DNA of 63,961 nt, filler included. It is 4 parts of 4 records of this genome, joined end to end, with 100 filler letters (N's around TTAATTAATTAA, not from the genome) between each part and the next. Parts side by side here need not be neighbours in the genome. Positions count along the whole stretch, not along the records: positions 29,828 to 44,997 come from SRR2962707_1117; 3 more parts are not named here. One strand, given 5' to 3'. The translations under genes were made by a program, and so were the position numbers. Positions 29,828 to 47,489 of the stretch are shown here, piece after piece. The notes below the pieces were generated by a model, which was not told the DNA's origin, did not search any database, and saw nothing but the letters and a program-made list of their open reading frames with translations. Each line of letters opens with the position of its first letter. Positions within the stretch are counted from its first letter, which is position 1.

Positions 29828-29857
29828 TTTTTTTTTTTTTTTTTTTTTTTTTTACAG
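29828..29857 (+). other. 3' end of a spliceosomal intron (polypyrimidine tract and acceptor)
   Basis: T26 followed by ACAG|G, immediately before an in-frame coding exon. Confidence 0.75.
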
Positions 29858-30053: not shown

Positions 30054-33000
30054 TTATCTTTTTTGTTGTCCGCGCTTTTGTTGGGCGTCAGCATCTTTCA
30101 ACGCTTCGCCGCCATAAAACCAGTCATCCAGGGCCTCTTCTTCGCCCTCGATCACCGCGCCAGTGCTACTGGCTTTCCTGCGCCTGGTGCGACCAGACCC
30201 AACTTTACCTTCTGTGTTTACAGAATCGCCTCTCGTGGAGATATTTTGCAACCTGTCAGTGAAAGTCGACGCTTGCTCCTCCCCCCGCCATTTGGATGTA
30301 CCGGTCTGCGCACCTGCTGGCTCGAGCATTGATGTTTCTTCGGCCTTCAGTGCAGTTGCTGGGGTTCGCCTGCGACTGCGGCGGGCGGATCCACTCTTGG
30401 CCTCGACTTGCGAATCATCTGCTTCACCACCACCACTTGTGTCCTGGTCCTGGTGTGTGGCCGTATGATTTTTGCGCCTGCGGCGCCTTGTTGACCGCGC
30501 GCTTTTTCGCGAAACGCCGACGGAGCTGTCCACAACTGTTGTAGCTGCCGCAGAGCGGCGCGAGCGCAGCCGACGCGCACCTGGTCCCGCACGCACGATT
30601 GAAGCGCGCGAGGCTGCTGGCTCATGATCGACGCTATCTGTTCCGACTCCAAGCTCTCCAGCCTCGGCAGTAGCAATAGCTTGCGATTTCTTGGAACGGG
30701 CACGCCGTCGGCGCCGCACCGCAGCTGGACCTGGACTGCCATCGTCAGCATCGTCTGCAACGTCCAGGACTGCCCCTCCCCCAACTGCCCTCACCGGCTT
30801 GATTTTGCTCAACGACTCGACACCCCCAAGCCTGGAGCTTGAGCGACTCAAGCTCAGCATCACCGGTGGGCCAACAACACCCACATCCGCAGGCCGGGGT
30901 CCGTCAGGCGGAGTGGCGGCGCCAATTTTCTTCAGGCGTGCTTTGGCAAGCTCGCGCTGGAACTTCAACGCGTCCGACACAACAACATCGCTCATTTGAA
31001 GGGCTTTGTGATTTAGCGCAGCTGGCCGCTCCCATTGACTTCGCCCAAGTGGGCCAGAGTAATAGTAAGGGAAACCGTTGGCGTCGGTGCACTGCACCCA
31101 CTCCCTTGCTGCTTGATGTGAAGCTGCAATCGTTTTCATGTCGAGCTCCTCCTCCTTCTCGGACGTGTTGTCTTTCGTTTTGCGGGAGAAGGAATGCAAG
31201 AACTCGGGCACGTCACCAGTCGCTTGTCGAGGTGTGGTTGAAAGACGAGGTGTAGTTTCACGGCTTGGACTGTCTTTTGTTTCCCTGGTCGCGGGTGACG
31301 GCGAATCTGCTGCGGCAAGTTGCGGCGACTCTGAACCTTGAGCATGCCGTGGCGAAGGCATTAGCTCTACTCCACTGCGCGAATCCTTTGGAACGACAGC
31401 TGCAGACGAAACCATGCCAGGCGGCATTGGGTATCCTCCAACGGGCATCATATGGACTTTGCGGTTCAGGTGTTCATGCTTTTTCTGCATCACAACGACA
31501 ACAATGATGATCACTATGATCAACAAGACGACGCACGCAATAACAACCCAAAGCCATGTGAGGTCCACAATCTCAGGTGGCTCGGTAACAGCAAGCTGAT
31601 AAGCAACGACTGGAACGCCGGCTGACGGCACGCAGTCCGGATTCAAGCTGGACTCCGACGTACGAGCGGCAACTTCGGACACAGCCTGCTGTTCGTTCAA
31701 GGTTGCGTTATAAGGAACCTGAACCTTGTAGACGTAAGTGAGAAATTTTTCATTATCTGCATCAAGCGAAGCAGACAAGTCGAAAGAAATGTCGTAAAAC
31801 TGCAAAGCAACTGTTTGGTCGCGCGGAGCGCCTGCACGTGTAAATCCAAGCACCTCCGTGTACGCTTGTTCCAAGCAATACGCCAGAAATGCGACAAGGT
31901 CGTCATTATACTGAGTAGTCGTGGGTGAGGTTGTCGGCACCAAATCAAAGCTTGTGCTGGTTGCGCTTTCAACACAAGGATAAGTCCCATCGCATGGCCG
32001 AGCCCACGCTACTTCCGCAACAGATGACGTACACTCATCATCGAAAATATACGAATACAAGATAATTTCGTCCAAGCCGTCGACAGAACATACAAAGTCA
32101 TTTCCGATCAGGTTTGGCTCCATCGCAGTGCGGTCCACAAGGTTGGTGCGCCATGGGCATGGATCGATGTCCCCGCATTGTCCATCATTGTCAAAGTCAT
32201 TGTACCAGTCTTGCGGACACGGGTCATCGTCGGCGCACATATTATCGAAATCAGCGTCATTTTCCGCATCGTATGGACAAGAGTCGATGTCCGCACAAAT
32301 TCCATCGCTGTCAGCATCGTTTTCTGCGTCAAGGGGGCATTCGTCGGAGCACTCGTCGTGGCACGCGCAACCACAGACGTTGCACAGGCCATGCTGCAAA
32401 CATCGTCCGTTGTTGTGTTCACCGATTCCATACGTATTGCAGCTACCAAACCCAATGTCAATGGAGAGGTCGTCGCGGCAAAGTGAACCGTCACCATTTT
32501 CACAAAGCCCATCACTGTCTTCGTCATTCTGGTTGTCGTACCAACAGGCGTCCGAGGACTCGCACAGTCCGTCTTCATCAACGTCATTGAGCACGTCTTG
32601 TGGGCAGGAGTCGTCCGCTAAGCAGATAAGATCGCTATCAACATCGCGCCCTGTTGGATCGTTGAGGCAGTTGTCGAAAGCAACATTCACGTAAATAACA
32701 AGATCCCATGTTGCTGCAGCCAACATTCGCTCGCGGCGGCCAGTGTCAGATTGCGACATGTGCACCAAGCGCGCATCAAGAGAAAGTAGGTTCCGATGCA
32801 GTTGCAATCGCAACGCAAGAACGTCTCCAAGTTGACTGTTTAGCCCAGAGCTTATGTCCACTGCGTCTCCGACAATGTTCATCCGAATTTCAGCAGATAC
32901 AGTTCCGTCGTTGGTCGAAAACGTTGAGTCCCTTGCCGCATATTGTGTCGCAAGAGAAAAGTTTGACATAAGAATATCGGCCATTTCACCACTCAGGCAC

Positions 33001-36000
33001 ATGATCTCCAAAGTCCGCACAAGTGCCACGTCGGCAGAATCATACGTGTCTTGGCATGCTCCATCGCCATCAGCGTCATTGTCTCGATCGAATGGGCAGG
33101 TATCCTCACTGGAACACAAATTATCACCGTCAATATCGTTTGCAGGATCTGCTGGGCAAGTGTCATCATCTTCACACAACAAATCGCTGTCTTCGTCGTT
33201 AAGTGCATCAGTTGCACAACTGTCAATGGACTCGCACAATGAGTCGCTGTCTGCATCGTTGGCAACATCAAGCGGGCAACGGTCCACATTACCACATAGG
33301 TTGTCGTCATCGAGATCATTTTCCTGGTCGAGAGCACATGAATCAACGTTGCCACAAATTCCATCACTATCAGCATCATTATCAGGATCATGGGGGCACT
33401 CGTCACGGAATCCGCACTCTGAAGCGCAAGAACAGCCACAGTGCCCGCCATCATCGCATGCACCATCGGCACGACAGTTGCCCTTGTTGGCTCGGGTATA
33501 AGTGAAACAACGACCAAATCCAGCATCCCAATCCGTCTCGTCCATGCACGTTCCTGGATGGCAAATATGGTCGCTATCGGCGTCATTTTCCGCGTCGAAG
33601 GGACAACTGTCCACATCCCCGCAAATGGCGTCCTGGTCCCAGTCATTTCTGTTGTCGAAGGGACAAGCATCGATGCTTGCACATACTCTATCGCTGTCGA
33701 TATCGTTTGCGACGTCTTCTGGGCAAGAGTCAACGTGCTCACAAAGGCCGTCGTTGTCGCTGTCGTTTTGATCGTCAAACGGACACGAGTCCACGTTTCC
33801 ACAGATTCCATCGCTATCAAAGTCATTGGCGGCATCCTGCGGGCAAGCATCACTGGTTCCGCAAATTCCATCGCTATCAACGTCGTCGTCTGAATCTTCG
33901 GGGCAAGGATCGAAAATGTCGCACACCATGTCACCGTCACTATCGTTGCCAGTGTCATAGGGACAGGAATCTACATCAGCACATACCAAGTCTGAATCAA
34001 CGTCGTTGGCAGGGTCTTGTGCGCAGCTGTCAACGTCTCCACACAAAGCGTCACTGTCAGCATCATTGTTGGGATCGTGTGGACACAGTTCAACGTCTCC
34101 ACACACATCGTCACTATCAATATCGTTTTCGGTATCTTGTGGGCACAAATCTTGAAATCCACACTCGGTCGCACACGAACACGGACAAACGTTGCATACC
34201 CCATCACGAACGCAACTTCCTGCATTGTACGAGATTGCCCGGTATGTGTGGCAAGAGCCCAGGCCGTTGTCAAAGTAGGTGTCCTCACGGCACACGTTCA
34301 TGTCCATTGCACATATTGCGTCACTATCTGCATCGTTCAGAATATCGTAGGGGCAACTGTCAGCATCGCTACAAATACCATCGCTGTCAGCGTCATTCTC
34401 CGCATCGTGCGGACAGGAATCTTCATCAGCGCACTGCCCGTCGCTGTCAACGTCATTTTCGGCGTCGTGAGAGCACACGTCGATCAGCCCACACTCAACC
34501 GCGCAGGTACAAGCGCAACGACTGCAAGCGCCATCCTCAACACAATGACCAAAATTATGGCGATTGTGGGCGTACGCCATGCATGTCCCTCCGTCGACTG
34601 GACTTCTGAACGCTGGGTCGTCTTCACAGTAATGCAACTCACAAATATTGTCACTATCAGCGTCATTTTCGTTATCGTATTTACAAGAGTCGTCAGTTTC
34701 ACAAATGCCATCACTATCAGCGTCATTCTCCGTGTCAAAGGGGCACGTATCTGTTGGGGCACACACAAGGTCGCTGTCTTTGTCGTTGAAGGTGTCGTAT
34801 GGACAAGAGTCGACTTCTGCACAAACACCGTCAGAATCAATGTCATTTTCGGTGTCAGTCGGGCACTGGTCATTCGCACGCACTCCGTTCGTGCAGAGAC
34901 CATCGCTGTCCATATCAATGCAACAAGTGTACTGGAACGACGTCAGTGCCTCAAACGTAAATCCCGCTTCACCGAAGTCACCGAAGGAAGACCCATACCA
35001 TGGAAATCGTCGTTGAACACTTGTGTCACCATTCGAGTCAAATGTGTACATTAACGCAACGAACTCGATTTCTTCTGGGAAGGGCATCTCCAATTGAACC
35101 GTAAACGTTCCGTTTCCAGCGGCTGCCATCACCACGACAATTCCATCCGTTGATGACTCCACCTTATTGGCAGTTGACGCGCTCTCAAGAAGGTATTGCT
35201 TGTTCAAAACTGTCGCAACCTCCAGCAGTATTTTTGTTTTTCCATCTGCGGCAACGGGAGTGCCATCTGCGTAAACAAAGCTAATGCTCAGGGAAAGTTC
35301 ACAACTGCCATCTTGTGGCTGCGAGATACTGAATCCATTGGAACTTTGAAAACGATATTTGTTTCCGAGCGCATACAACAAAAAGCTGGCATCAACGGCG
35401 TCAACGACACCATTCTTGTCCACATCCATGCTTGTAATTTGCTCTTGTTCGTGTGTGTATGCCAAGCTCCCTCCAGCAAGGTAGGTTTTTACCCAACTGA
35501 GATCTGTGACGGACACGCTGCAGTCCCAATTAACGTCACCGGTCATGTTACACGACTGATCATCCTCCAGCATTCTTCGATGATGTATTGGAACTTGAGG
35601 ACGCCGGCGGTTCGCAATTGCGGCAACGAGTTGTCGTCTGTCTGTGAAGTCAGTGCTCAGCACGCCACTTCCACTGACAATACGTCGACTTTTTTCACCG
35701 AGCACATTGTTGTTCAATGTCAGGGTTTCAATAACTGTTCCAGTGATTTCAGTTGCCCCCGATCCCTTGCACATAAAAGTTATGATTGCAAGCTCCGCGG
35801 ATGCTCCGGTTACTGAGCCTCCTGCCCCAATGATTTGCACAGCGGTGACAGGATCATTCAAGGTTGCGTCAAATGTTGCTGGCCAATCTTTGCCCGCTGC
35901 CGCAGCAGCGGCGGAAATCACCGCATGGTCAAACTCGAGCAAGATTTGGAAAGCCGTTAATGGTTGACCACCTGTATTTATTCGGACCGGTAAGTCAAAC

Positions 36001-39000
36001 GTTCCAGTTGCAGCGCATTCAAAGAAGAAGGGGGACCCAGCCAGGTTTCCTACATCGACATCAAAAGTGTCAGGGTTAAGATTCGTGGCCAACCGCTTGG
36101 ATGTTCCCACACTGTTGTCGCCCAGCGAAGCAATGTGAATTTGGACAGTGTCGTCGCCGGGCGTGTTGCCTGTCAATTCAACTACTCCAACAGAAGACAT
36201 ACTGACATAGTCAGTGTTTGACGAAGCGAATGAAAGGTACGTCGAAAGTTCAACCCAATCACCATCACCACCGGCAATCGTTTGAACAGCCGAAAACTGT
36301 GTATCATCGTCAAATGTCAACGCCAAAGTAAGGGCGTGTTCCGACCCAAGAAGTCCAACGATGTAGCTGGTAGCCGGAGATACTATTTGGATGTCCACAA
36401 CAGTCACTGGGGAGTCTAGAGATGTGAGAGCACAGCTAGTTGTTTGGTTTGCCCACACCGCGGTTAAAGTGCAGTTTCCTGAGCCAATGCCCTGGATTTG
36501 TTTTGTCTGAAGTTCGCCTTGCGATACTGTGCACGGGCCGCTCGACCCGCAGGCATCAACTATGGTGGCGACCTCAACGTCGGATATGGTGACGTCAACT
36601 GCTCTCCCAACCCCAACTTCGTATGTGTGCTTCATCACACTCTTTGCAAACAAGTTGGCCGACAGCCGCTGGAATGAGTTGCTCGCAAACTGCAGCGGCG
36701 CCATGGTCACCTTGTCCAGGCATTGCTGTGAGTTACATGCCGGAAAGGCAGAAGTTGACAAGTGCAAGGACTCAAACTTGTCAATTTGCAGATACGCAAA
36801 GCCTGTCACATTAGGTGCAAAAGCGCCAAGATTTACGGTGATGGTGACATTTGCGGCCTTTACGCTCTGACTGCGCACGGCAATGACATTTGCTGCAGTA
36901 AAAATGACGGATTCTTCGCTTAAAGTAGAAATAGCAGTGCGACTGTCTTGCGAAAAATCAATTTCTTGGCCATCTTCGAAAATTGCCGTGACCGTGACCG
37001 TTGCTTGTGTGGCCTGCAACACTGGTACAGCAGCGAGTGGGTCGGCGGCATGGACGATATTTCCATTGTCGATAGACACCCCAATTGCTACAATTGGCGG
37101 CATCTCGACATTTACGTATGGCCACGCTTCTACTTGAGCAACATCACACTTGGCAAGCGCGACGTGAACGAAATCCGAACCAGCCTGTTCAACCGCACCG
37201 ATCGGGATTTCGAGTTCGGCATTTGTCGCATTGACAACCACAAGACTTGTACTTGCCAGAACCGAAACGTTAAGGCTATGCTTGACTGGCGCAGATTCCT
37301 CATCTGAAAAGTGAGCAAATGCAAATACGTGAGCTCGGTCCCCCTCAGAATTTAAAGCCTGCACCGCAGACACTGTCACGTTTGCGTCACCATAGTTCGA
37401 GAATTGGTCCTCTGAGAACTGCATGCCACGGGTAAGTTCAAGCCCAGACAACACGTAGGCCTCCAAACTCGAAAGACGCACTTTCACATCTGACACAACA
37501 AAGCGAGCAGGAGTAACGTTGCATGCTACACCATTGCAAGAAATGGTCACCTCACCATCTCCAGGCGTCAAACCATACAACAAATCATTTTCAACGTGTG
37601 CCAAGTCACTGTCGCGGCCTTGAGGGTCGACCACCTTGAAGGACACGAAGCGAGTTACGTCTATATGCGAGACTGTGACAGGCCCCAATACAGACGCACT
37701 TGCAACCACAGGCGACCACTGGTACCAGGCGGTTTCGTTGCTGGCACTGCAGTTTTGACTCACAAAGTCAATGGCGTTTAATGTATTGTCTCGCACAGAA
37801 ACTTGCACACTTACGGGAAGCCACACTCGGAACAAGACAAGGGACTGCGTAAACGAGCCATACGTCACCGTCACGGAAGCATCTCCGCCGGCCGTCATTG
37901 ACGAATTGAGAAATGTTGCGCAATTTGCATTAATACCAATAAGCGATGCATCGTCTGAAGCACAGCTAACGGCGGACGTAACGTCCAATTTGCTGTTTCC
38001 TTCAGCGCAAGCTGTCACAGAGACACCATTTGTGTGGCACGAGCGAACAGCCAAAGCAGTCACCTGAGCGCTTCCTGGTTCTGTGCCGAACTGGGCCGTA
38101 TTGACAAATTCCTGCTCGTTGTTGTCAGCATCAACGTAAACCTGAATACCAACGTAAGAAGTTGCCTCGATGTTCATTACACCAGAAGTTCCAATGCCAA
38201 CTATAGATGACACGTATCCCGTTGTGTCGTCGAGAATTTTTCGACTTGAGGTGGAAACCAGCGTCAATGAGGATATAGATGTGATTGCTGCCACCTCGTC
38301 GCCAAGCGACGCGGAAGCTGATGTCTTCAGGCGAAATGCACCAACGAAAAGATGAGTTGAGGTAAGATCATCAGATTCCACACCACTCTTGAACGAAGCC
38401 GAGACCCGAAGGCCGGACGACAAAGTTGTAATCGTCAAGTCAAAAATATCCGAGGTAAAAGAATCAGCGACGAGTTCGAACTGATCAGACCAATCAATCT
38501 GTGCCACCCAAACGCCAAGCGCAAATGTACTCGAACCTGTGCCTGTGTGAACGAACAGATCCACAAGGAAAGACCCGCCTGGCACAGAGCTAAACCAGGG
38601 CAATGTTGCCAACAACCCAACGTCCGAAAGAGCGTTCGTGAAGGTTGGAACTGGCGCCAGCGATAGAACGTGTTCGTCCGAGTGCTGTTCGCCGGCAAGT
38701 AGGGCGTACACTGTTGCAACTTGTGCGTCAGCCGAAAACCACGAGATCGGAACTGTGCCCTTGCAGTTCACACCACTCGCGGACTGTAGCGTTCCACACG
38801 AGATAAGTTGAGAGTTGGTGCCCAACTCGACAATCAACTGCACCGGTGAACCGGCCTTGCTTGCAAACCCAGGACCAGATGTCCAAACCGTTGCAACAAT
38901 GCCGTTGCTGTCAACGTGGGCAGTCAATGTGCGCAACACCATGTTCACGCTTGTGTCCACTGTGTCAGGAACGTGTACAGTTGCTGTCGATATCGCAAAT

Positions 39001-42000
39001 GCGCCTTGAAGGCTCGCTGTGAGTGAGTAGGGCGCTCGCTGGTGGAATGAGCGTACAAGCTGAGTACTCGTTATGTTTCGCGTTTTCTCAAAGTATGCAC
39101 CTCCGCCGGTGGAAACGACTGCGCCGTGCACTTTGAAAGCATTCGTTGTCATGGCTGCAAGCTCCACCTCGATTGGTGAGTTGAAGCCATCATTGCCGCA
39201 GTATCCGTCGCCATCTTCATCGTTTTGATTGTCGTACGGACAAGAGTCAGCGTCGCCACATACGGCGTCAGAATCAATGTCGTTCTCAGGGTCGTTGGCA
39301 CAATGGTCAACACGCCCGCATACATCCGCACACGCACAGCATGCATCACAAGCGCCTTCGTCCGCCACGCAAAATTCAAAATTAGCCCGCGCATACGAAA
39401 GACAGTCACCAAAGCCAGAATCGAAAGTGGGGTCGTCGATGCAGAATAGTGGGTCACAGATACCATCGTCATCGGCATCATTGTTTGAATCAGTGCTGCA
39501 CGAATCAACATCGCCGCAAACATCATCAGAATCTCGGTCGTTATCGTTGTCGTATGGGCAGCTGTCTTCATCGCCGCAAATTCCATCACTGTCTGCGTCG
39601 TGCTCACTGTCATAAGGGCAGGCATCGTTAAGAATGCACTCCACCTCACAGCTGCATCCACAGACAGCGCACACTTGGTCACGTTCACAGAAACCATAAT
39701 TCGCACGCCCAGGCAAATAAGAGTCACATGGGCCGTGGCCTACGATGTCTGAGGCATTGCTATCATGGCACCGCCCGGCAACACATATGGAGTCACTGTC
39801 AAAATCGTTTTCAGTGTCGTATGGGCAGGAATCCACATTGCTGCAAATGTTGTCGCTGTCAGGGTCGTTCTCGGCATCGTAAGGGCACTTATCGGATAGC
39901 GTGCACGACAACACGACGCGTCCAGGAGACGCAGTCGTCATATTGGAAGCTTGGGGGCTCGTCGTCCAATGGCATTCCTGCCGACACAATCCATCGTTGT
40001 CGGCGTCATTCTCCGCATCGAAGGGGCATCTGTCATTGTTTCCGCAAATGTCGTCGCTATCCGCGTCGTTCATTGAGTCTCTTTCACAAGAGTCCAGGTC
40101 TGAGCAAATATTGTCCGAATCTTGGTCCTGAAAAAAGTCATGGCGGCAAGAGTCGATGCTGCCACAAATGCCGTCTAAATCCGCATCATTTTCAGCATCG
40201 TTTGGACATCGATCTCGCTCCCCGCAAATGGCATCGCTATCAATGTCATTTTCGCCATCTTCCGAGCAAGAGTCGACATTTCCGCACACGTCATCGCTGT
40301 CAAAATCATTTGCTGAGTCATAGGGGCAGCTATCTACATTGCCGCAGATATCGTCAGAGTCAGCATCGTGCTCTGCGTCAAGCGCACATTCGTCATCCTG
40401 TGCGCACAGTCCGTCGCCATCTGCGTCATTGTCTGGATCAAACGGGCAACTGTCAACGTCAAAGCAAAGACTGTCAGAATCTCCATCGTTCGCAGCGTCG
40501 CTAGCACAGCTATCGACGTCCCCGCAAACGTAGTCATTGTCGAAGTCGTTCAACGCATCGTATCTGCAGTCGTCTTCGTTGCCGCACGTTGAGTCGCTGT
40601 CGGCGTCGTTCTCAGCGTCGAAAGGGCAGGGATCATCAAGCCCACACTCATCGCTGCATGTGCACGCGCAAAGATTGCAAACGCCATCGAGTTTGCACTT
40701 GCCGTAGTTGGCGCGGCCCATGCCATATGTGAAACATGAGCCAAAACCTCCAACATCAGGCGCTTTGCTGTCTCGGCAGAAGCCTTGTACACACATCAGA
40801 TCACTGTCAATATCATTCATCCTGTCGTACGGACAGCTGTCTTGGTTCGAACACAGAGCATCGTTGTCTCCGTCGTTTTCAGCGTCGTACGGACAAGAAT
40901 CCACTTCTCCACACAGCTCATCACTATCAGCGTCGTGCTCAGCATCGCGGGGACAGGCATCGTCCGGAGAACACACCGCGTCTCCATCTGCATCGTTTTC
41001 GGCATCGTAAGGGCAGCTGTCGTCTTCACGGCACAAATTATCGGAATCACCGTCGTTGTAACGGTCAAACGGGCAGCTGTCATCCTGAGCGCACATCAAG
41101 TCGTCGTCAATATCGTTATTTCCATCAAAGGGGCACGAGTCGAAATCAGCACATACCCCATCACTGTCGGCATCATTGTAAACGTCGTGGGGACATGGGT
41201 CGCTGAGTCGGCATTCGGTACTGCAACTACAGCTGCAAACCTCGCAGACGCCGTCTGCGACGCATTTTCCGTTATTGGCGCGGCCACGAACGTATGTTCC
41301 GCACGGGCCGGCACCGGCAACATCGAGGGCTTTGCTGTCCTGGCACATACCCTGCACACAAATATTGTCACCATCGCTGTCGTTTTCGGCATCGTATGGA
41401 CAACTGTCGAAGCTATCACACAGCATGTCGTCATCGCTATCGTTATTGCCATCGACCGGGCACGAGTCCGCGTCCGAGCAGATCGTGTCGCTATCTCCAT
41501 CGTTTTCAGCATCGTACGGGCATGAGTCAACGGTTGAACACAGACCGTCGCTGTCGATGTCGTTCTCTGCATCGTGAGGGCAAGGATCGATCTCTGAGCA
41601 CTGCAACTCGCACGCGCACCCGCATATTTCACATACGTTGTCTCGAACACATTGTCCAAAATTTACTTGCCCAACGTGATAAGAGATGCAATTGAACTCC
41701 AAGAATTTGAAGCTAACATCATCTTCGCACTGCGTGGCTGCGCACAGATTGTCGGAATCCCAGTCATTTTCAGGATCAAAGGCGCAAGAGTCCACGTCAC
41801 CGCAGATCCCGTCTTGGTCTGTATCATTTTCATGGTCGTTGGGGCACGCGTCAAATGGTAAACACACGTTGTCGCCATCATCATCGTTGTTGGCGTCGTT
41901 GGGGCACGAGTCAAACATGGCGCAAACCCCGTCGGAGTCCGTATCCTCATTGTCACCATCCGCACACTCGTCTTTGTATGTGCACAGCTCATCAGAATCG

Positions 42001-44996
42001 GCATCATTGAGGTTGTCATGAGGGCATGTGTCAAAGTTTAAGCAGATTGTGTCGGAGTCGTTGTCGTTGAAGTAATCGTATGGACACGAATCTACGTTAC
42101 CGCAAGCGCCGTCGTCATCTGCGTCATTTTCCGCATCTAGTGGGCAGCCGTCCTGCTCTCCGCACAAGTCATCGCTGTCTGCATCATTGTATGAGTCCAA
42201 ACGGCACGAATCGACATCCCCACATATTAAGTCAGAGTCATGATCGTTGGCAGCATCGTAGGGGCAAGAATCCTCTGCGTGACACAGGGCGTCGCTGTCT
42301 GCATCATCCTCAGCATCAAACGGGCAAATGTCATCAATGTGACAAACGTGGTCACTGTCGGTGTCATCAATGACATCGAAAGGGCAACTGTCAATATTTC
42401 CGCAAAGTGCATCACTATCGTAATCGTTTGCGGCGTCGAGTGGGCAAGAGTCGACGTTTCCGCACAAGTCGTCACCATCAACATCGTTTTCTGCGTCAAA
42501 TGGGCAGTCTTCCAAATTGCCACAAACCATGTCGCTGTCACTGTCGTTGTCCACGTCCTCACTACACGAATCAACGTTGCCACAAATGGCATCGTTGTCA
42601 TGATCATTTTGTCTATCAAGCGGGCATGAGTCAAGGTTAGCACACACAGCATCTGAATCGGCATCGTTTGATTGGTCGTACGGACACGAATCCAAGTTGC
42701 CGCATACTCCATCACTGTCCATGTCATTCTCATTGTCCAGCGGACACATGTCGTTCAAATGGCACTCCACCGTACACGTGCAGGCGCAAATGTCACAAAC
42801 GCCGTCGTTCGCACATTGCCCAAAGTTGGAGCGTCCCTTAGCATAAGTGGCACAGGAACCAAAGCCTGCGACGTTTGTACTCGAACTGTCTTGGCATCTC
42901 CCTTGCACACATATCAAATCACTGTCAGCGTCATTGCCGCTGTCGTACGGACAGCTGTCGAAAAGCAGACAAAGCGAATCGCTGTCCGCATCATTTTGGT
43001 CATCAAGAGGGCAGGAATCTTCATCTGCACAAACGTTGTCGCTGTCAGCGTCATCGCTGGCATCCCATGGGCACACGTCATGCTGTCGGCACACCCGGTC
43101 ACTATCAGCGTCATTCTCTGCGTCTCGCGGACAACTATCTACGTTACCGCAAATCAAGTCTGAATCAACATCGTTGGCCGCATCGTATGGGCAGCTATCT
43201 TCGCTATGGCACAGGGCGTCACTGTCAGCATCGTCTTCAATGTCGTAGGGGCAGATGTCGTCAATGAAACAAACACTGTCACTGTCGGTGTCGTCCACGA
43301 CGTCATATGGACAACTGTCAATGTTGCCACAAAGCGCGTCACTATCGAAGTCGTTGGCCGCATCGAGTGGGCAAGAATCCACATCGGCACAAGCCCCATC
43401 CTTGTCAAAGTCGTCCTCAAAATCGTGGGGGCACACGTCAACGTTTCCGCAAGTGGAGTCGCTGTCCCAGTCGTTCTCAGGATCCTCCGCGCAACTATCA
43501 ACATCACCGCAAACATTGTCGCTGTCCAAATCATTGTCTCCATCATATTGACAGCTGTCCTGATCACTACATGTGGTGTCGCCGTCAACATCGTTTGAAG
43601 CATCATATGGGCAAGAGTCAGCGTCCCCACAAACAATGTCGCTGTCCGCGTCGTTTTCCGCGTCGAAAGGACAATTATCGTCAAGATGGCATTCGCTGCT
43701 GCAAGAGCACGCGCAGATATCGCACACGCCGTCATTCACACAATGACCCGCATTTGAACGACCAGATGCGTAGGTTGCACAAGAACCCTGACCAGCGACG
43801 TCGTTTTGCTTACTATCGCGGCACCGACCTTGAATGCAAATTGAGTCGCTGTCGATATCGTTCAAAGCGTCATAAGGGCATGAGTCAACGTTCCCACATA
43901 CTCCGTCACTGTCGGCATCATTCTCGTAGTCATATGGGCATGAGTCTATGTCACCGCAGATTTCGTCGTCGTCAGCATCATTTTCGAAGTCGTATCGGCA
44001 TTCATCCACGTCTCCACAAATAGCATCGTTGTCGGCATCGTCCTCAATGTCTTCTGGGCAATCCTCTTCATCTCCACAAATATCATCACTGTCAAAATCG
44101 TTTGCGGCATCGTAGGGGCAGCTGTCAACTGGGCCACAAATTTCGTCGCTGTCCGCATCATTCTCAACGTCGCCCGGGCAAGCCTCGTCGGTTGGGCAAA
44201 CTGAGTCACTATCAATGTCGTTTTCTGTGTCGACTGGGCATGGGTCTTCATCGCGACAGAGCAAATCTGAGTCAATATCGTTTGCTGCGTCGTACGGACA
44301 GCTATCGACGTCGCCGCAAATGTAGTCCTCGTCTTTGTCATTTTCACCGTCGCGAGGACACTCTTCTTTGTCACCACACACTCCATCACTGTCGACATCG
44401 TTTTCGGTGTCCAACGGGCATAAATCATCCAAATGACATTCAATACTGCACGTGCACGAACAAAGTGAACAAGCACCGTCGCGCACGCAATTTCCTGCGT
44501 TCGCACGACCATCTGCGTAGGTTGCACAGCCTCCATGCCCACTAATGTCAGCAATGTCACTGTCGGCACAATAGCCTTGCTCGCAAATGCCATCGCTGTC
44601 GCGGTCGTTGAACCCGTCGTATGGACAGCTGTCCATATCCCCACAAAGCAGGTCGTCATCGTAGTCGTTCGATTGGTCACGCGGACACGAGTCCACATCA
44701 CCGCAAACTAAGTCGTGGTCCGAATCGTTCTCTGCATCATATGGGCAACTGTCCATTGTTCCACAAATACCGTCACTGTCAGCATCGTGTTCAAAGTCGT
44801 AGGGACACAAATCATCTAGGCCGCACTCAACCCCGCAAGCGCAGGCACATGAATTGCAAACTCTATGTGCGACGCAGTTTCCATGGTTGTAGAAACCGGC
44901 TTCGTACGTGCCACAGGGACCATAGCCGGCAGCGTCACCGGCTTTATCGTTGCATTTACCTTGGACGCAAATTTGATCACTGTCTGCATCGTTTTC
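30054..44996 (-). CDS. Giant eukaryotic single-pass membrane protein (>=4980 aa, 5'-truncated): TSP3-like repeats, 8-Cys modules, TMEM132-like cohesin/Ig block, cohesin, dockerin, TM, WW
   Basis: The frame stays open from the contig edge (ENDADSDQICVQGKC...) to TAA at 30054-30056. The ORF-track start at 44810 is an internal TTG. Domains were recognised by motif (see sub-features). Confidence 0.9.
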   Translation of the reverse strand, partial: ENDADSDQICVQGKCNDKAGDAAGYGPCGTYEAGFYNHGNCVAHRVCNSCACACGVECGLDDLCPYDFEHDADSDGICGTMDSCPYDAENDSDHDLVCGDVDSCPRDQSNDYDDDLLCGDMDSCPYDGFNDRDSDGICEQGYCADSDIADISGHGGCATYADGRANAGNCVRDGACSLCSCTCSIECHLDDLCPLDTENDVDSDGVCGDKEECPRDGENDKDEDYICGDVDSCPYDAANDIDSDLLCRDEDPCPVDTENDIDSDSVCPTDEACPGDVENDADSDEICGPVDSCPYDAANDFDSDDICGDEEDCPEDIEDDADNDAICGDVDECRYDFENDADDDEICGDIDSCPYDYENDADSDGVCGNVDSCPYDALNDIDSDSICIQGRCRDSKQNDVAGQGSCATYASGRSNAGHCVNDGVCDICACSCSSECHLDDNCPFDAENDADSDIVCGDADSCPYDASNDVDGDTTCSDQDSCQYDGDNDLDSDNVCGDVDSCAEDPENDWDSDSTCGNVDVCPHDFEDDFDKDGACADVDSCPLDAANDFDSDALCGNIDSCPYDVVDDTDSDSVCFIDDICPYDIEDDADSDALCHSEDSCPYDAANDVDSDLICGNVDSCPRDAENDADSDRVCRQHDVCPWDASDDADSDNVCADEDSCPLDDQNDADSDSLCLLFDSCPYDSGNDADSDLICVQGRCQDSSSTNVAGFGSCATYAKGRSNFGQCANDGVCDICACTCTVECHLNDMCPLDNENDMDSDGVCGNLDSCPYDQSNDADSDAVCANLDSCPLDRQNDHDNDAICGNVDSCSEDVDNDSDSDMVCGNLEDCPFDAENDVDGDDLCGNVDSCPLDAANDYDSDALCGNIDSCPFDVIDDTDSDHVCHIDDICPFDAEDDADSDALCHAEDSCPYDAANDHDSDLICGDVDSCRLDSYNDADSDDLCGEQDGCPLDAENDADDDGACGNVDSCPYDYFNDNDSDTICLNFDTCPHDNLNDADSDELCTYKDECADGDNEDTDSDGVCAMFDSCPNDANNDDDGDNVCLPFDACPNDHENDTDQDGICGDVDSCAFDPENDWDSDNLCAATQCEDDVSFKFLEFNCISYHVGQVNFGQCVRDNVCEICGCACELQCSEIDPCPHDAENDIDSDGLCSTVDSCPYDAENDGDSDTICSDADSCPVDGNNDSDDDMLCDSFDSCPYDAENDSDGDNICVQGMCQDSKALDVAGAGPCGTYVRGRANNGKCVADGVCEVCSCSCSTECRLSDPCPHDVYNDADSDGVCADFDSCPFDGNNDIDDDLMCAQDDSCPFDRYNDGDSDNLCREDDSCPYDAENDADGDAVCSPDDACPRDAEHDADSDELCGEVDSCPYDAENDGDNDALCSNQDSCPYDRMNDIDSDLMCVQGFCRDSKAPDVGGFGSCFTYGMGRANYGKCKLDGVCNLCACTCSDECGLDDPCPFDAENDADSDSTCGNEDDCRYDALNDFDNDYVCGDVDSCASDAANDGDSDSLCFDVDSCPFDPDNDADGDGLCAQDDECALDAEHDADSDDICGNVDSCPYDSANDFDSDDVCGNVDSCSEDGENDIDSDAICGERDRCPNDAENDADLDGICGSIDSCRHDFFQDQDSDNICSDLDSCERDSMNDADSDDICGNNDRCPFDAENDADNDGLCRQECHWTTSPQASNMTTASPGRVVLSCTLSDKCPYDAENDPDSDNICSNVDSCPYDTENDFDSDSICVAGRCHDSNASDIVGHGPCDSYLPGRANYGFCERDQVCAVCGCSCEVECILNDACPYDSEHDADSDGICGDEDSCPYDNDNDRDSDDVCGDVDSCSTDSNNDADDDGICDPLFCIDDPTFDSGFGDCLSYARANFEFCVADEGACDACCACADVCGRVDHCANDPENDIDSDAVCGDADSCPYDNQNDEDGDGYCGNDGFNSPIEVELAAMTTNAFKVHGAVVSTGGGAYFEKTRNITSTQLVRSFHQRAPYSLTASLQGAFAISTATVHVPDTVDTSVNMVLRTLTAHVDSNGIVATVWTSGPGFASKAGSPVQLIVELGTNSQLISCGTLQSASGVNCKGTVPISWFSADAQVATVYALLAGEQHSDEHVLSLAPVPTFTNALSDVGLLATLPWFSSVPGGSFLVDLFVHTGTGSSTFALGVWVAQIDWSDQFELVADSFTSDIFDLTITTLSSGLRVSASFKSGVESDDLTSTHLFVGAFRLKTSASASLGDEVAAITSISSLTLVSTSSRKILDDTTGYVSSIVGIGTSGVMNIEATSYVGIQVYVDADNNEQEFVNTAQFGTEPGSAQVTALAVRSCHTNGVSVTACAEGNSKLDVTSAVSCASDDASLIGINANCATFLNSSMTAGGDASVTVTYGSFTQSLVLFRVWLPVSVQVSVRDNTLNAIDFVSQNCSASNETAWYQWSPVVASASVLGPVTVSHIDVTRFVSFKVVDPQGRDSDLAHVENDLLYGLTPGDGEVTISCNGVACNVTPARFVVSDVKVRLSSLEAYVLSGLELTRGMQFSEDQFSNYGDANVTVSAVQALNSEGDRAHVFAFAHFSDEESAPVKHSLNVSVLASTSLVVVNATNAELEIPIGAVEQAGSDFVHVALAKCDVAQVEAWPYVNVEMPPIVAIGVSIDNGNIVHAADPLAAVPVLQATQATVTVTAIFEDGQEIDFSQDSRTAISTLSEESVIFTAANVIAVRSQSVKAANVTITVNLGAFAPNVTGFAYLQIDKFESLHLSTSAFPACNSQQCLDKVTMAPLQFASNSFQRLSANLFAKSVMKHTYEVGVGRAVDVTISDVEVATIVDACGSSGPCTVSQGELQTKQIQGIGSGNCTLTAVWANQTTSCALTSLDSPVTVVDIQIVSPATSYIVGLLGSEHALTLALTFDDDTQFSAVQTIAGGDGDWVELSTYLSFASSNTDYVSMSSVGVVELTGNTPGDDTVQIHIASLGDNSVGTSKRLATNLNPDTFDVDVGNLAGSPFFFECAATGTFDLPVRINTGGQPLTAFQILLEFDHAVISAAAAAAGKDWPATFDATLNDPVTAVQIIGAGGSVTGASAELAIITFMCKGSGATEITGTVIETLTLNNNVLGEKSRRIVSGSGVLSTDFTDRRQLVAAIANRRRPQVPIHHRRMLEDDQSCNMTGDVNWDCSVSVTDLSWVKTYLAGGSLAYTHEQEQITSMDVDKNGVVDAVDASFLLYALGNKYRFQSSNGFSISQPQDGSCELSLSISFVYADGTPVAADGKTKILLEVATVLNKQYLLESASTANKVESSTDGIVVVMAAAGNGTFTVQLEMPFPEEIEFVALMYTFDSNGDTSVQRRFPWYGSSFGDFGEAGFTFEALTSFQYTCCIDMDSDGLCTNGVRANDQCPTDTENDIDSDGVCAEVDSCPYDTFNDKDSDLVCAPTDTCPFDTENDADSDGICETDDSCKYDNENDADSDNICELHYCEDDPAFRSPVDGGTCMAYAHNRHNFGHCVEDGACSRCACTCAVECGLIDVCSHDAENDVDSDGQCADEDSCPHDAENDADSDGICSDADSCPYDILNDADSDAICAMDMNVCREDTYFDNGLGSCHTYRAISYNAGSCVRDGVCNVCPCSCATECGFQDLCPQDTENDIDSDDVCGDVELCPHDPNNDADSDALCGDVDSCAQDPANDVDSDLVCADVDSCPYDTGNDSDGDMVCDIFDPCPEDSDDDVDSDGICGTSDACPQDAANDFDSDGICGNVDSCPFDDQNDSDNDGLCEHVDSCPEDVANDIDSDRVCASIDACPFDNRNDWDQDAICGDVDSCPFDAENDADSDHICHPGTCMDETDWDAGFGRCFTYTRANKGNCRADGACDDGGHCGCSCASECGFRDECPHDPDNDADSDGICGNVDSCALDQENDLDDDNLCGNVDRCPLDVANDADSDSLCESIDSCATDALNDEDSDLLCEDDDTCPADPANDIDGDNLCSSEDTCPFDRDNDADGDGACQDTYDSADVALVRTLEIMCLSGEMADILMSNFSLATQYAARDSTFSTNDGTVSAEIRMNIVGDAVDISSGLNSQLGDVLALRLQLHRNLLSLDARLVHMSQSDTGRRERMLAAATWDLVIYVNVAFDNCLNDPTGRDVDSDLICLADDSCPQDVLNDVDEDGLCESSDACWYDNQNDEDSDGLCENGDGSLCRDDLSIDIGFGSCNTYGIGEHNNGRCLQHGLCNVCGCACHDECSDECPLDAENDADSDGICADIDSCPYDAENDADFDNMCADDDPCPQDWYNDFDNDGQCGDIDPCPWRTNLVDRTAMEPNLIGNDFVCSVDGLDEIILYSYIFDDECTSSVAEVAWARPCDGTYPCVESATSTSFDLVPTTSPTTTQYNDDLVAFLAYCLEQAYTEVLGFTRAGAPRDQTVALQFYDISFDLSASLDADNEKFLTYVYKVQVPYNATLNEQQAVSEVAARTSESSLNPDCVPSAGVPVVAYQLAVTEPPEIVDLTWLWVVIACVVLLIIVIIIVVVVMQKKHEHLNRKVHMMPVGGYPMPPGMVSSAAVVPKDSRSGVELMPSPRHAQGSESPQLAAADSPSPATRETKDSPSRETTPRLSTTPRQATGDVPEFLHSFSRKTKDNTSEKEEELDMKTIAASHQAAREWVQCTDANGFPYYYSGPLGRSQWERPAALNHKALQMSDVVVSDALKFQRELAKARLKKIGAATPPDGPRPADVGVVGPPVMLSLSRSSSRLGGVESLSKIKPVRAVGGGAVLDVADDADDGSPGPAAVRRRRRARSKKSQAIATAEAGELGVGTDSVDHEPAASRASIVRAGPGARRLRSRRSAAATTVVDSSVGVSRKSARSTRRRRRKNHTATHQDQDTSGGGEADDSQVEAKSGSARRSRRRTPATALKAEETSMLEPAGAQTGTSKWRGEEQASTFTDRLQNISTRGDSVNTEGKVGSGRTRRRKASSTGAVIEGEEEALDDWFYGGEALKDADAQQKRGQQKR
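31023..31109 (-). other. WW domain in cytoplasmic tail
   Basis: REWVQCTDANGFPYYYSGPLGRSQWERP has W, the YYY aromatic triplet and WxxP. Confidence 0.85.
31488..31559 (-). other. Single transmembrane helix
   Basis: TWLWVVIACVVLLIIVIIIVVVVM followed by QKKH (positive-inside). Confidence 0.92.
32150..32680 (-). repeat. TSP type-3-like repeat block 3
   Basis: About 6 units of CPxDxxNDxDxDGxCxxxDx plus one 8-Cys insert. Confidence 0.85.
33054..34926 (-). repeat. TSP type-3-like repeat block 2
   Basis: About 23 20-aa units (estimate) plus three 8-Cys inserts. Confidence 0.88.
35367..35540 (-). other. Dockerin-like domain
   Basis: Duplicated Ca-loop/helix motifs GDVNWDCSVSVTDLSWVKTYL and MDVDKNGVVDAVDASFLLYAL. 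Confidence 0.8.
35700..36010 (-). other. Cohesin-like domain 2
   Basis: GTFDLPVRINT...LTAFQILLEFDHAVI...ELAIITF matches the cohesin strand pattern. Confidence 0.7.
37100..38620 (-). other. TMEM132-like block (cohesin-like domain plus three Ig-like domains)
   Basis: FVNTAQF, CASDD, VWLP...DNTLNAI, YQ, DVTRFV, LYGLTPG, VSDVKVRLSSLEAYVLSGLEL and AHFSD follow the order of TMEM132 conserved motifs as I recall them. Confidence 0.7.
39195..44996 (-). repeat. TSP type-3-like repeat block 1 (60-bp period)
   Basis: About 75 units (estimate) of consensus CPYDAENDADSDGICGDVDS plus nine 8-Cys inserts. Confidence 0.9.
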
Positions 44997-44997
44997 G

Positions 44998-45097: not shown

Positions 45098-45232
45098 CCA
45101 CATCCAGTTGAGGTTCTTGGGGGTCGGCATCATAATGGTGTCGTACAGCAGTCCGATCACCGGCAGGCGGCGATGCACCCACTTTTCGGCACCGGATTTC
45201 GGTTCGTAATGGTCGTGCGGAATTCCAGCCAT
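45098..45232 (-). CDS. petB: Cytochrome b, 5' end (partial)
   Basis: [12 protein letters not shown]...RLP...[10 protein letters not shown], a Rhodobacteraceae-type N-terminus, downstream of petA. Confidence 0.93.
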
Positions 45233-45243
45233 TTCTCTCTCCC

Positions 45244-45807
45244 TTACCCGAGAACGATCGTGGTTTCGTCAGCGAACTCGGCCGGGGGCACCGGGAGGTT
45301 GCGCGGTGCGGGGCCCTTGCGGATGCGGCCCGCAGTATCGTAGTGCGATCCGTGGCAGGGGCAGAACCAGCCATCGTAGTCGCCCGAATTATTGCCCAGC
45401 GGCACACACCCAAGGTGGGTGCAGACACCCATCATGACTAACCACTTGCCTGCTTCGTCAAGGGTGCGGTTCTCGTCTGTGGCTTCTGCCTCGGACGAAA
45501 GATTGTCGTTCCGCGCAACCTGGTCGACCAGTTCCGACACTTCGACGGCGCGACCTTCCTCAATTTCCTTGTCGGTGCGCAGACGGATAAAGACCGGCTT
45601 GCCCAGCCATTTAACCGTCAGCTGCGTACCTTCCGACACGCCGGCTACATCGACCCGGATCGACGACATTGCGAGAACGTCGGCCGAAGGGTTCATCTGA
45701 TTGACCAGTGGCCAGACTACTGCACCGGTGGCGACAACTCCGGCACCTGCGGTGGCGTAGTAGAGAAAATCTCTCCGGGTGCCTGCGTGATCGTCTGCGT
45801 GTGACAC
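45244..45807 (-). CDS. petA: Rieske Fe-S subunit of the bc1 complex
   Basis: Tat motif TRRDFL and Rieske motifs CTHLGC and CPCHGS. Confidence 0.97.
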
Positions 45808-46038
45808 GAGGTTTACTCCATTCCTGGGCCGTTGAAGGGGCCGAGACTAAAAGATCTGCCATGAAATTTCATGGCCTTATCGTCGGGGTGTTTAACGGGG
45901 TCCCCGGGTTGCGTCCAGAACTCAAAATCGCGTGTTCGTGAAAAGCGCGGATGTGTCGCGGTTGTGAGCCATAATAAGTAATTATATGACACCGGAAGAG
46001 TCGATGACCGCAAGGTCGTGCCCGTAAGGAATAAGGCG

Positions 46039-46704
46039 ATGAAACAAGCAATTTTTATAAAATGCGCTATTGGTGCAACGGCTATCGTGCTTCTTGCAGG
46101 TCCGGCTGCGGCTGAAATGGAGCTTTCTGTGTATTCTGGCTGGCAAACTGCGCCGCACAGTCGGCTGAGCGGGGACTATCCCGGGGGCGGTTCGTACGAC
46201 GCCCTGATTGGCTGGGATGGCAAGTCATTCGAGATGCCGCTCTATTATGGCGTGCGGGGCACCTGGTGGAAGGACGAGCGAATCGGCTTTGGCCTGGAAT
46301 TCACACACACCAAGGTCTACGCGCCGGACGACGAAGCAGCGTCAATCGGATTCGAGAACTTTGAATTTACTGATGGCCAAAACATCCTGACGGTGAACGC
46401 CTTGCGCCGCTGGCCGGATCAATGGCGGGGGCTGACGCCCTATGTCGGCGGCGGGCTTGGTATCGCGGTGCCGCATGTGGATGCCGAAACGACCGGCGGT
46501 GACAAGACATATGGCTATCAGCTGACCGGCCCTGCGGTACGTCTGATCGCCGGGGCAAGCTATGATATCAGCGACCGGGTTGCGGTCTTTGGCGAGTATC
46601 AGTTCGTCTACTCCACCAACGAAGGCGATCTTGATGGCGGCGGAACATTTCAGACAGACATCAAGACCAACGCTCTGAACGTCGGACTGTCGTTGAAGTT
46701 CTGA
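46039..46704 (+). CDS. Outer-membrane beta-barrel, LpxQ (lipid A oxidase)-like
   Basis: Signal peptide, then [34 protein letters not shown] and PHV, with a C-terminal Phe. Confidence 0.75.
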
Positions 46705-46723
46705 TCCGTATTCCATGGATTTG

Positions 46724-46754
46724 AAGAGGCCCCTGTTTCAGGGGCCTCTTTTTT
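46724..46754 (+). terminator. Terminator after lpxQ-like gene
   Basis: AAGAGGCCCCTG-TTT-CAGGGGCCTCTT-TTTT. Confidence 0.85.
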
Positions 46755-46810
46755 GTAACCTGCGCGCCGGTTCGGGTCGGTTCCGGCCCCAAGGGGGCTA
46801 CTTTGTCAGA

Positions 46811-47419: not shown

Positions 47420-47489
47420 CTGGGGTCCTTTCGATCGGGATCATTCCCGAAAATTTGGCAATTCGCGCGGACTTTATAAAGGGCATCGG

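What the first reader, a model, noticed from the sequence alone, without database searches (positions are those of the whole stretch)
35367..36010. Cohesin - polybasic linker - dockerin in a single eukaryotic polypeptide
Seen: a cohesin-like domain, then DRRQL...NRRRPQ...HHRRML (35568-35640), then a two-repeat dockerin. Established: cohesin-dockerin is the Ca2+-dependent, very high-affinity and mechanically strong clasp of bacterial cellulosomes, normally on separate proteins. Kexin/furin-type proteases cut at paired basic residues. Inference: the precursor is cleaved here and the distal half is held to the membrane-anchored half by its own cohesin-dockerin clasp. That would give a sheddable, exchangeable or force-sensing joint. 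With a second cohesin-like domain upstream, it could also chain molecules into a surface lattice. This is the best candidate for an undescribed system in the window.
Basis: partly seen in the sequence, partly recalled or inferred. Interest (0 to 1): 0.87.

Follow-up and report, generated by a model that had tools for sequence, protein, structure and literature searches.

The report
Cut-and-clasp joint in eukaryotic surface proteins
A giant surface protein of an unidentified eukaryote carries a bacterial-style socket (cohesin) and plug (dockerin) side by side, joined by a linker with a protease-type motif at each end; the linker is likely cut out so that the two halves would hang together only by the predicted calcium-dependent clasp, and such motifs recur in most long-linker relatives but in none of the short-linker, bacterial-type ones examined.

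Summary
Observation confirmed. A ≥4,980-aa intronless, poly(A)-tailed ORF (30054-44997, −) carries a TMEM132-like cassette (cohesin, about six Ig domains), then a second cohesin, a 34-aa linker, a dockerin with both Ca2+ loops, and later one TM helix. The ectodomain's only two RRxL motifs bound that linker; it has no furin site. In 196 homologous modules the linker varies in length but keeps basic sites, often at both ends: furin-type R-x-K/R-R in the cadherin-bearing group (70 of 92), R-x-L in the group with haptophytes and this protein (67 of 72; two sites in 52), none in Myxococcota-like modules (0 of 22; 6-13 aa). AlphaFold pTM 0.89 and one co-varying pair favour pairing with the adjacent cohesin, not the upstream one. 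Best reading (0.55): the linker is excised and the halves stay clasped. Cleavage and binding are untested; the protease here is likelier S1P- or ASP5-like than furin. Cohesin-bearing choanoflagellate and sponge cadherins are published, and this scan noted the cassette four times on other DNA; the two-site, lineage-matched linker was not in my searches.

The parts
30054..44997 (-). Single open reading frame, at least 4,980 aa, 5' end missing; type I membrane protein
   Evidence: a 17,078-nt contig of run X1 holds it in one piece and extends further
39192..44996 (-). N-terminal array of acidic DxDxDxxC repeats with interspersed Cys-rich units; likely Ca2+-binding (thrombospondin type-3-like label is recalled, no Pfam hit)
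   Evidence: 104 DxDxDxxC and 8 Cys-rich regex matches in the whole protein; no Pfam family
38709..39023 (-). Conserved region preceding cohesin 1 (position of the TMEM132 'CR')
   Evidence: own iterated profile finds it at 122 places, mostly just before cohesin 1; no Pfam hit in this protein
38208..38624 (-). Cohesin 1 (TMEM132-type cohesin-like domain); no dockerin or basic linker follows it
   Evidence: hhalign probability 98.3 to cohesin 2; cleavage-type motif within 45 aa after it in 4 of 120 modules; no Pfam cohesin hit alone
36084..38207 (-). Ig-like (BIG) array, about 700 aa, probably two copies of the three-domain TMEM132 unit
   Evidence: PF16070 Ig_TMEM132_4th 42 bits at 38117-37815; profile self-match at offset about 354 aa, probability 94
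35649..36083 (-). Cohesin 2, type I cohesin fold
   Evidence: PF00963 24.1 bits; Z 14.6, rmsd 2.2 A over 129 residues to 6kgc_A
35547..35648 (-). 34-aa linker; low model confidence (pLDDT 57-74 by blocks); likely excised between the two motifs
   Evidence: homologous linkers
35628..35639 (-). RRQL, first R-x-L motif (predicted cut 1)
   Evidence: matched by RRQL, RREL, RRAL in P0002, P0003, P0007
35598..35612 (-). NRRRP, middle basic run; not conserved
   Evidence: absent from P0002, P0003, P0007 at this place
35568..35579 (-). RRML, second R-x-L motif (predicted cut 2)
   Evidence: matched by RRSL, RRSL, RRL in P0002, P0003, P0007
35349..35546 (-). Type I dockerin with two Ca2+-loop repeats (D3169, N3171, D3173, D3180; D3206, D3208, N3210, D3217)
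   Evidence: PF00404 40.7 bits; 2ccl_B Z 10.7, rmsd 1.2 A; loop-closing Asp in 199 of 199 and 198 of 199 modules
34926..35348 (-). Beta-rich domain X that follows the dockerin in most modules; fold not assigned
   Evidence: strands, pLDDT over 90; 185 of 199 modules; only a weak Pfam hit, E 0.056
32673..33035 (-). Domain with a third R-x-L motif (RML, 32729-32721) in a loop; SEA-like label is recalled and untested
   Evidence: motif kept as RRHL and RRML in P0002 and P0003; no Pfam hit; Atlas lead only, score 0.77
31488..31562 (-). Single transmembrane helix
   Evidence: only stretch above 1.9 in a 19-residue hydropathy scan, peak 4.04
31023..31103 (-). WW-like domain in the cytoplasmic tail
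   Evidence: PF00397 24.3 bits, E 3.3e-5, below the 26.9 cut-off
29828..29853 (-). 26-nt A run on the coding strand at the contig end, likely a poly(A) tail

Best explanation
This giant type I membrane protein carries a cohesin and a dockerin side by side, and it is likely cut twice in the secretory pathway at the R-x-L motifs that bound their linker, so that its outer half (repeats, cohesin 1, Ig array, cohesin 2) would stay on the membrane-side half only through a predicted Ca2+-dependent clasp of cohesin 2 on its own dockerin. Shown: folds, intact Ca2+ loops, motif positions, their conservation and the topology. Inferred: (a) the pair docks in cis while the chain is whole; (b) an R-x-L protease (site-1-protease/SBT6.1 type or ASP5/plasmepsin V type; kexin-type RR is possible here but fits the group less well) removes about 20 residues (3139-3158), while furin-type convertases do the same job in cadherin-bearing relatives; (c) the clasp then becomes the only link and so acts as a release point for pulling force or low Ca2+, allowing the adhesive outer half to be shed or replaced.
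For: Only two RRxL motifs in the 4,478-aa ectodomain, one at each end of the linker. Motif class follows the tree: cadherin-bearing group R-x-K/R-R in 70 of 92 unique linkers, two clusters in 40 (shuffle mean 0.4, max 3); the group with this protein, Prymnesium parvum (P0019) and Diacronema lutheri (P0033) R-x-L in 67 of 72, two clusters in 52 (shuffle mean 7.5, max 18); Myxococcota-like group 0 of 22, linkers 6-13 aa. Linker length runs 13-177 aa while the first basic pair sits within 14 aa of the cohesin end in 134 of 162 long linkers (shuffle max 61). Control junction after cohesin 1: 4 of 120. These motifs match published specificities: furin R-X-K/R-R and S1P R-X-aliphatic-Z (PMC8310232, passages), plant RRxL (PMC13082318, passages), Toxoplasma RRL (PMC6212819, passages). 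Pairing: single-chain AlphaFold pTM 0.89 with a low-confidence linker against about 0.55-0.60 for two independently placed halves (my arithmetic with assumed errors). Top cohesin-2/dockerin coupling I3071-G3226 z 9.3; six pairing shuffles max 5.7; cohesin 1 max 5.6; within the cadherin-bearing group G and F change together at 7 points by parsimony (61 GF, 27 neither, 6 discordant of 94).
Against: No cleavage or binding was measured. I saw only pTM, not the interface, and cohesin-dockerin complexes are in the PDB, so the model can dock them from memory. The covariation rests on one pair; its small/large state changes only twice on the whole tree, the next couplings (z 5.2 or less) are within shuffle range, and pairing shuffles ignore relatedness. 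Covariation cannot tell cis from trans pairing of identical chains. The bacterial 6-aa-linker module gave an intermediate pTM of 0.74, so the same cis geometry is not assured there. Exceptions exist: 5 of 72 and 3 of 92 linkers lack the group's R-x-L or any KR/RR; P0132 has a 13-aa linker without one. The query included the basic linker and only 150 of 348 hits were listed, which may favour basic linkers. A third R-x-L nearer the membrane could release the dockerin half as well.
Confidence: 0.55

Rival explanations
1. The linker is cut, but the point is exchange: freed cohesin-2 halves and dockerin halves pair in trans between molecules or paralogues, giving mixed ectodomains or a surface lattice.
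For: Covariation and the fold model fit trans pairing of the same surfaces equally well. The cassette is fused to different cargo (cadherin, TSP1, acidic repeats) and occurs 2-4 times in 30 of 138 proteins. Very short bacterial linkers with pTM 0.74 may need trans pairing. Many related repeat-bearing contigs exist in the same runs.
Against: One cohesin 2 and one dockerin per module cannot branch by themselves; cohesin 1 shows no coupling to the dockerin. No second cassette at 80% DNA identity or more was laid on 34910-36424 in X1 (flat depth about 48). Very slow dissociation of known pairs (recalled) would hinder exchange.
Confidence: 0.2
2. The linker is a pro-segment: cutting sheds the outer half and frees the dockerin to capture another partner (cohesin 1 of a neighbour, or a separate cohesin protein); the own-chain clasp is absent or transient.
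For: Two cohesins per dockerin. The model puts a helix on the first half of the linker, which could mask a surface. Cleaved halves of ASP5 substrates do not always reassociate (GRA46, PMC6212819, passage).
Against: Cohesin 2 and dockerin are adjacent in 199 of 207 dockerins found; the other 8 include N-terminal fragments. Cohesin 2 is better conserved than cohesin 1 (mean top-residue share 0.44 against 0.33) and carries the only coupling above shuffles.
Confidence: 0.12
3. The chain is not cut. The arginine-rich linker is an electrostatic or trafficking element (for example binding the acidic repeats or polyanions) and cohesin-dockerin is a fixed structural elbow, as it must be in bacteria that lack the motifs.
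For: Myxococcota-like modules do without any basic site, and a few eukaryote-type modules lack it. Linkers are 15% Arg.
Against: Composition alone does not give the pattern: shuffles of the same linkers yield far fewer two-site cases, and the motif switches between R-x-K/R-R and R-x-L by group, with R-x-L below shuffle level in the furin-type group (14 of 92 against 23.5).
Confidence: 0.1

Closest known systems
TMEM132 cassette and coherin/lefftyrin/hedgling cadherins of choanoflagellates and sponges (Sanchez-Pulido and Ponting, PMC6030884; whole main text and supplement legends read, figures not readable; Nichols 2012, Peer 2009, Abedin and King 2008 not seen)
   Same: Conserved region, cohesin, BIG domains in the same order in a large single-pass surface protein; cadherin-bearing homologues with the same cohesin-linker-dockerin block were retrieved (P0005, P0025). 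I recall that a Monosiga cadherin was reported with both cohesin and dockerin; I could not check this.
   Different: No cadherin repeats here; about six rather than three BIG domains, then a second cohesin, dockerin and domain X. The text read says dockerins are not detectable in vertebrates and mentions no processing sites. The cassette also occurs in haptophytes and Myxococcota.
Type I cohesin-dockerin pairs of clostridial cellulosomes (PDB 1ohz, 2ccl, 6kgc) and Ruminococcus ScaC-type adaptors with one cohesin and one dockerin in one chain (PMC4081043, passage)
   Same: Same two folds and duplicated Ca2+ loops.
   Different: No glycoside hydrolase or other enzyme domain detected; adaptors are described as bridging different partners, whereas here the adjacent pair appears matched and is separated by a likely processing linker.
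Cleaved-but-associated receptors: Notch S1 heterodimer, SEA-domain mucins, GAIN-domain receptors (all recalled, not read here)
   Same: Principle: a surface precursor is cut and its halves stay together non-covalently, creating a release point sensitive to force or Ca2+.
   Different: There the halves interlock within one domain; here the joint is a pair of separately folding modules of bacterial type, and the linker looks excised at two sites, as in a proprotein.
R-x-L processing motifs: S1P/SBT6.1 RRxL (PMC13082318, PMC8310232), Toxoplasma ASP5 RRL (PMC6212819), diatom RXL (PMC10328945); passages read
   Same: RRQL and RRML match RRxL and R-x-L; ASP5 sites can lie anywhere in a protein and some cleaved halves reassociate.
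   Different: No such site has been described between a cohesin and a dockerin in the papers I could search; the responsible protease in this organism is unknown.

Membership tests
Type I cohesin | Pfam PF00963 match and cohesin beta-sandwich fold | tested here: met
   24.1 bits, equal to cut-off; Z 14.6, rmsd 2.2 A over 129 residues, top 8 rows all cohesins
Type I dockerin | Duplicated Ca2+ loop-helix repeats, PF00404 | tested here: met
   40.7 bits; both loops intact; 2ccl_B Z 10.7, rmsd 1.2 A
Cognate cohesin-dockerin pair | Ca2+-dependent high-affinity binding of this dockerin to cohesin 2 | tested here: inconclusive
   pTM 0.89 in one chain and one co-varying pair point to it; interface not seen; affinity needs an experiment
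TMEM132-like cassette | BIG domain of the TMEM132 type | tested here: met
   PF16070 42 bits, cut-off 27
TMEM132-like cassette | Conserved region and cohesin-like domain before the BIG domains | tested here: inconclusive
   No PF23481/PF23039 hit in this protein; both hit homologue P0025 weakly; own profiles place both domains in this order
Animal TMEM132 proper | Three BIG domains followed by the TM helix, no dockerin | tested here: not met
   About 700 aa of Ig array, then cohesin 2, dockerin, X and about 1,100 aa before the TM
Animal TMEM132 proper | Cytoplasmic PP1-docking and WIRS motifs | not tested
   Not scanned; a weak WW match was found instead
Coherin cadherins | Cadherin repeats | tested here: not met
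   No cadherin family in the 4,980 aa available; 5' end missing; present in homologues P0005 and P0025
Cellulosome component | Carbohydrate-active enzyme on the dockerin, or a multi-cohesin scaffoldin | tested here: not met
   No such Pfam family; 5' end missing; other proteins of the organism were not available
Furin substrate | R-X-K/R-R in the ectodomain | tested here: not met
   None in residues 16-4493; met in 70 of 92 linkers of the cadherin-bearing group
S1P- or ASP5-type substrate | RRxL / R-x-L motif in an exposed segment | tested here: met
   RRQL and RRML in the low-confidence linker
S1P- or ASP5-type substrate | Actual cleavage by such a protease | not testable with these tools
   Needs N-terminomics or an in vitro assay; no genome was held in which to look for the protease

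The most novel reading that the evidence does not exclude
An ancient, portable 'cut-and-clasp' joint: eukaryotes from haptophytes to cadherin-bearing holozoans placed a doubly cleaved linker between a matched cohesin and dockerin, re-tuned to each lineage's own protease, so that giant adhesion proteins (premetazoan-type cadherins with three cassettes would mature into four clasped pieces) carry built-in Ca2+- and force-gated release points, a Notch-like mechanism built from cellulosome parts and lost from vertebrate TMEM132.
Probability: 0.3. Interest if true: 0.9.

Novelty: new variant of a known kind. Interest (0 to 1): 0.72.

Why it matters
What the cohesin and dockerin domains of choanoflagellate and sponge cadherins do has been left open, and TMEM132's cohesin has no known partner (PMC6030884). 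This gives a concrete, testable answer for the dockerin-bearing relatives: a matched pair across a processing site. If true, it is a eukaryotic use of one of the strongest known non-covalent protein bonds as a shedding or force-release joint, it predicts that premetazoan-type cadherins are multi-chain proteins, and the short-linker Myxococcota modules provide a natural uncut control. It also offers a Cys-stabilised cohesin-dockerin pair from the eukaryotic secretory pathway for protein engineering.

Tried and rejected
No whole genome is held: the protease and other dockerin proteins of the organism could not be sought. Run search: no RNA holder listed; X3 holds only short pieces. Atlas search of the cassette gave only bacterial Big_2/dockerin clusters under 0.8. 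Third homologue search with the alignment returned one known protein. The P0063 genome scan matched its Cys-rich repeats, not the cassette, and served only to reach the phylum. A whole-cassette MAFFT alignment misplaced the query and was dropped; the four-domain covariation run had gap-driven Coh1-X hits and was replaced by two-domain runs. IQ-TREE on 57 sequences timed out without bootstrap values, though the three groups were recovered; only FastTree SH supports exist (0.87, 0.98, 1.0) and the tree is unrooted, so gain or loss of the linker and direction of any transfer are undecided. Domain X got no fold assignment (searches were filled by the cohesin). Rejected: artefact of assembly (frame open, same letters in two runs' contigs); bacterial origin of the contig (poly(A), TM plus WW tail, lower GC than its bacterial neighbours); furin as this protein's enzyme; cellulosome. 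Nichols 2012 and Peer 2009 are not held; supplement figures S2 and S5 of PMC6030884 are pictures I could not see and may show the dockerin or linker.


Full report
Setting. The window is four contigs joined by N-spacers. Three carry ordinary bacterial genes (9 of 10 ORFs scanned got a clear family, e.g. pyruvate kinase, PriA, UvrC, Rieske protein). The finding lies on the second contig (29828-44997, GC 0.515), a single minus-strand frame of at least 4,980 aa, open at the 5' end, with a stop at 30054 and a terminal 26-nt poly(A)-like run. It looks like a eukaryotic mRNA contig. Contigs of runs X1 and X2 (organism A, two studies, either possibly the source) carry the same letters across the finding, without introns.

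Anatomy. From the N-side: acidic DxDxDxxC repeats; a conserved region; cohesin 1; about 700 aa of Ig-like domains including a TMEM132 fourth domain (42 bits) with an internal repeat at about 354 aa; cohesin 2 (PF00963, 24.1 bits); a 34-aa linker; a dockerin (PF00404, 40.7 bits); a beta-rich domain X; more repeats with an unassigned domain bearing a third R-x-L; one TM helix; and a tail with a weak WW match. The AlphaFold model of cohesin 2 to X (76 sequences; pLDDT 91.3, pTM 0.89) matches type I cohesins (Z 14.6) and a type I dockerin (Z 10.7).

The cassette is widespread. A search of 1.84 billion representatives gave 348 hits, of which 150 were listed. In these plus three earlier proteins, 183 cohesin-dockerin tandems were found in 138 of 152 proteins (this protein's own dockerin was lost to a composition filter there, and was restored in later runs). 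The order conserved region, cohesin 1, Ig, cohesin 2, dockerin, X recurs almost throughout, fused to cadherin, TSP1 or other repeats (14 proteins scanned). Named members are few: Prymnesium parvum, Diacronema lutheri and an MMETSP transcript among 22 proteins looked up. It also occurs in 14 of 401 genomes of the phylum of a record titled Myxococcales.

The linker. Of 178 unique linkers, 162 were long (median 42 aa): 152 carry KR/RR, 134 within 14 aa of the cohesin end (500 composition shuffles: mean 44, max 61) and 127 at two separate places (mean 36, max 50; matched upstream windows 0.5%). A tree of 196 modules (3 of 199 dropped for gaps; one left ungrouped) splits into three groups (SH supports 0.87, 0.98, 1.0). 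The group holding all cadherin-bearing proteins (holozoan-like by architecture; taxa not returned) has furin-type R-x-K/R-R in 70 of 92 unique linkers and KR/RR in 89. The group holding this protein and the haptophytes has R-x-L in 67 of 72, twice in 52; 31 of 134 such motifs have no neighbouring basic residue, which a dibasic-specific enzyme would not cut. The Myxococcota-like group has 6-13 aa linkers and no basic pair in 22 of 22; 15 loci cut from those genomes agree (14 with a dockerin hit, one just below threshold). The junction after cohesin 1 has such a motif in 4 of 120. In this protein RRQL and RRML are the only RRxL motifs of the ectodomain, there is no furin site, and the middle NRRRP is not shared by the closest relatives. 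Caveats: the sequences are related, the query contained the linker, and exceptions exist (5 of 72; 3 of 92). Published specificities fit: furin R-X-K/R-R and S1P R-X-aliphatic-Z (PMC8310232, passages), plant RRxL (PMC13082318, passages), ASP5 RRL (PMC6212819, passages), diatom RXL (PMC10328945, passage). A spacer of free length with fixed, lineage-matched motifs at both ends is what an excised propeptide looks like (inference).

Which partner. pTM 0.89 exceeds what two independently placed halves would give (about 0.55-0.60), so the model docks cohesin 2 on dockerin-X, but I could not view the interface and such complexes are in the training data. A bacterial module with a 6-aa linker gave 0.74, intermediate. 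Covariation over 199 modules gave one strong pair, cohesin-2 position 3071 with dockerin helix-3 position 3226 (z 9.3; six shuffles max 5.7; cohesin 1 max 5.6 in 120 modules). On the whole tree its size state changes only twice; within the cadherin-bearing group the G-F pair changes jointly at 7 points. This is modest support for cohesin 2 and none for cohesin 1. A TM-like stretch follows the last dockerin in 39 of 121 eukaryote-type proteins and precedes the first cohesin 2 in none, so the dockerin is on the anchored side.

Mechanism. Most likely (0.55): fold and clasp in cis, excise the linker by two cuts, and display a two-chain protein whose outer adhesive half is held by the Ca2+-dependent clasp and can be released by force or Ca2+ loss. 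Rivals: trans exchange or lattice (0.2), shedding with capture of another partner (0.12), no cleavage (0.1). A third conserved R-x-L nearer the membrane (kept in both close relatives that cover it) suggests further processing.

What is known. The TMEM132 cassette and cohesin-bearing choanoflagellate and sponge cadherins are described (PMC6030884, whole main text and supplement legends read; figures unseen); one-chain cohesin-dockerin adaptors exist in Ruminococcus (PMC4081043, passage); PMC4054682 (passages) does not mention cohesin. Notch, SEA and GAIN comparisons, the thrombospondin-type-3 and SEA labels, and a Monosiga cadherin with both modules are recalled. Eight searches combining cohesin or dockerin with choanoflagellate, cadherin, coherin, Monosiga, TMEM132, furin or 'same polypeptide' (listings seen) returned no paper on processing at this junction; subscription journals, Nichols 2012 and Peer 2009 were not covered. 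This scan noted the cassette and a self-clasp four times on other DNA; the lines shown do not mention cleavage, and word searches with furin or cleavage terms found no full match.

Verdict. Real feature; a new variant of a known kind. The cassette is partly known; the two-site, lineage-matched processing linker with an uncut bacterial counterpart is the new and testable part. Interest 0.72.

Noticed in passing
window 32721-32729 (-): Third R-x-L motif (RRERML) in a loop of an unassigned, possibly SEA-like domain, kept as RRHL and RRML in P0002 and P0003; may be a second cut-but-held joint.
   Followed up: partly
L009-L023 (Myxococcota-phylum genomes): The same cohesin-dockerin-X block sits in giant bacterial ORFs (open frames up to 14,117 aa) with short non-basic, often Cys-containing linkers; they group with the haptophyte-containing set in an unrooted tree, so gene transfer in either direction is open.
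   Followed up: partly
P0005, P0010, P0012, P0014, P0015, P0017, P0022: Cadherin-bearing proteins of about 5,800-6,150 aa with three cassettes, nearly each linker with two basic sites; they would mature into four pieces.
   Followed up: partly
window 36084-38207 (-): The Ig array looks like a duplicated three-domain unit, so animal TMEM132 may correspond to the first half of this cassette.
   Followed up: partly
window 39192-44996 and 32082-34925 (-): Acidic DxDxDxxC repeats with a recurring Cys-rich unit have no Pfam family; many related contigs at much greater summed depth are in the same runs, suggesting a large repeat-protein family.
   Followed up: no
window 35522-35549 (-): A Cys in the first dockerin Ca2+ loop is kept in 166 of 199 modules, usually with a Cys just upstream; a disulfide could stabilise the new N-terminus after cutting.
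   Followed up: no
window 30281: Run X2's contig lacks one base here, in the cytoplasmic tail; error or allele not resolved.
   Followed up: no
window 1-29727, 45098-58685, 58786-63961: Bacterial contigs (GC 0.58-0.61) with ordinary genes; unrelated to the eukaryotic contig, so the assembly is mixed.
   Followed up: partly
P0132: A module in the R-x-L group with a 13-aa linker lacking the motif and a TM soon after domain X: a natural uncut eukaryote-type control.
   Followed up: no
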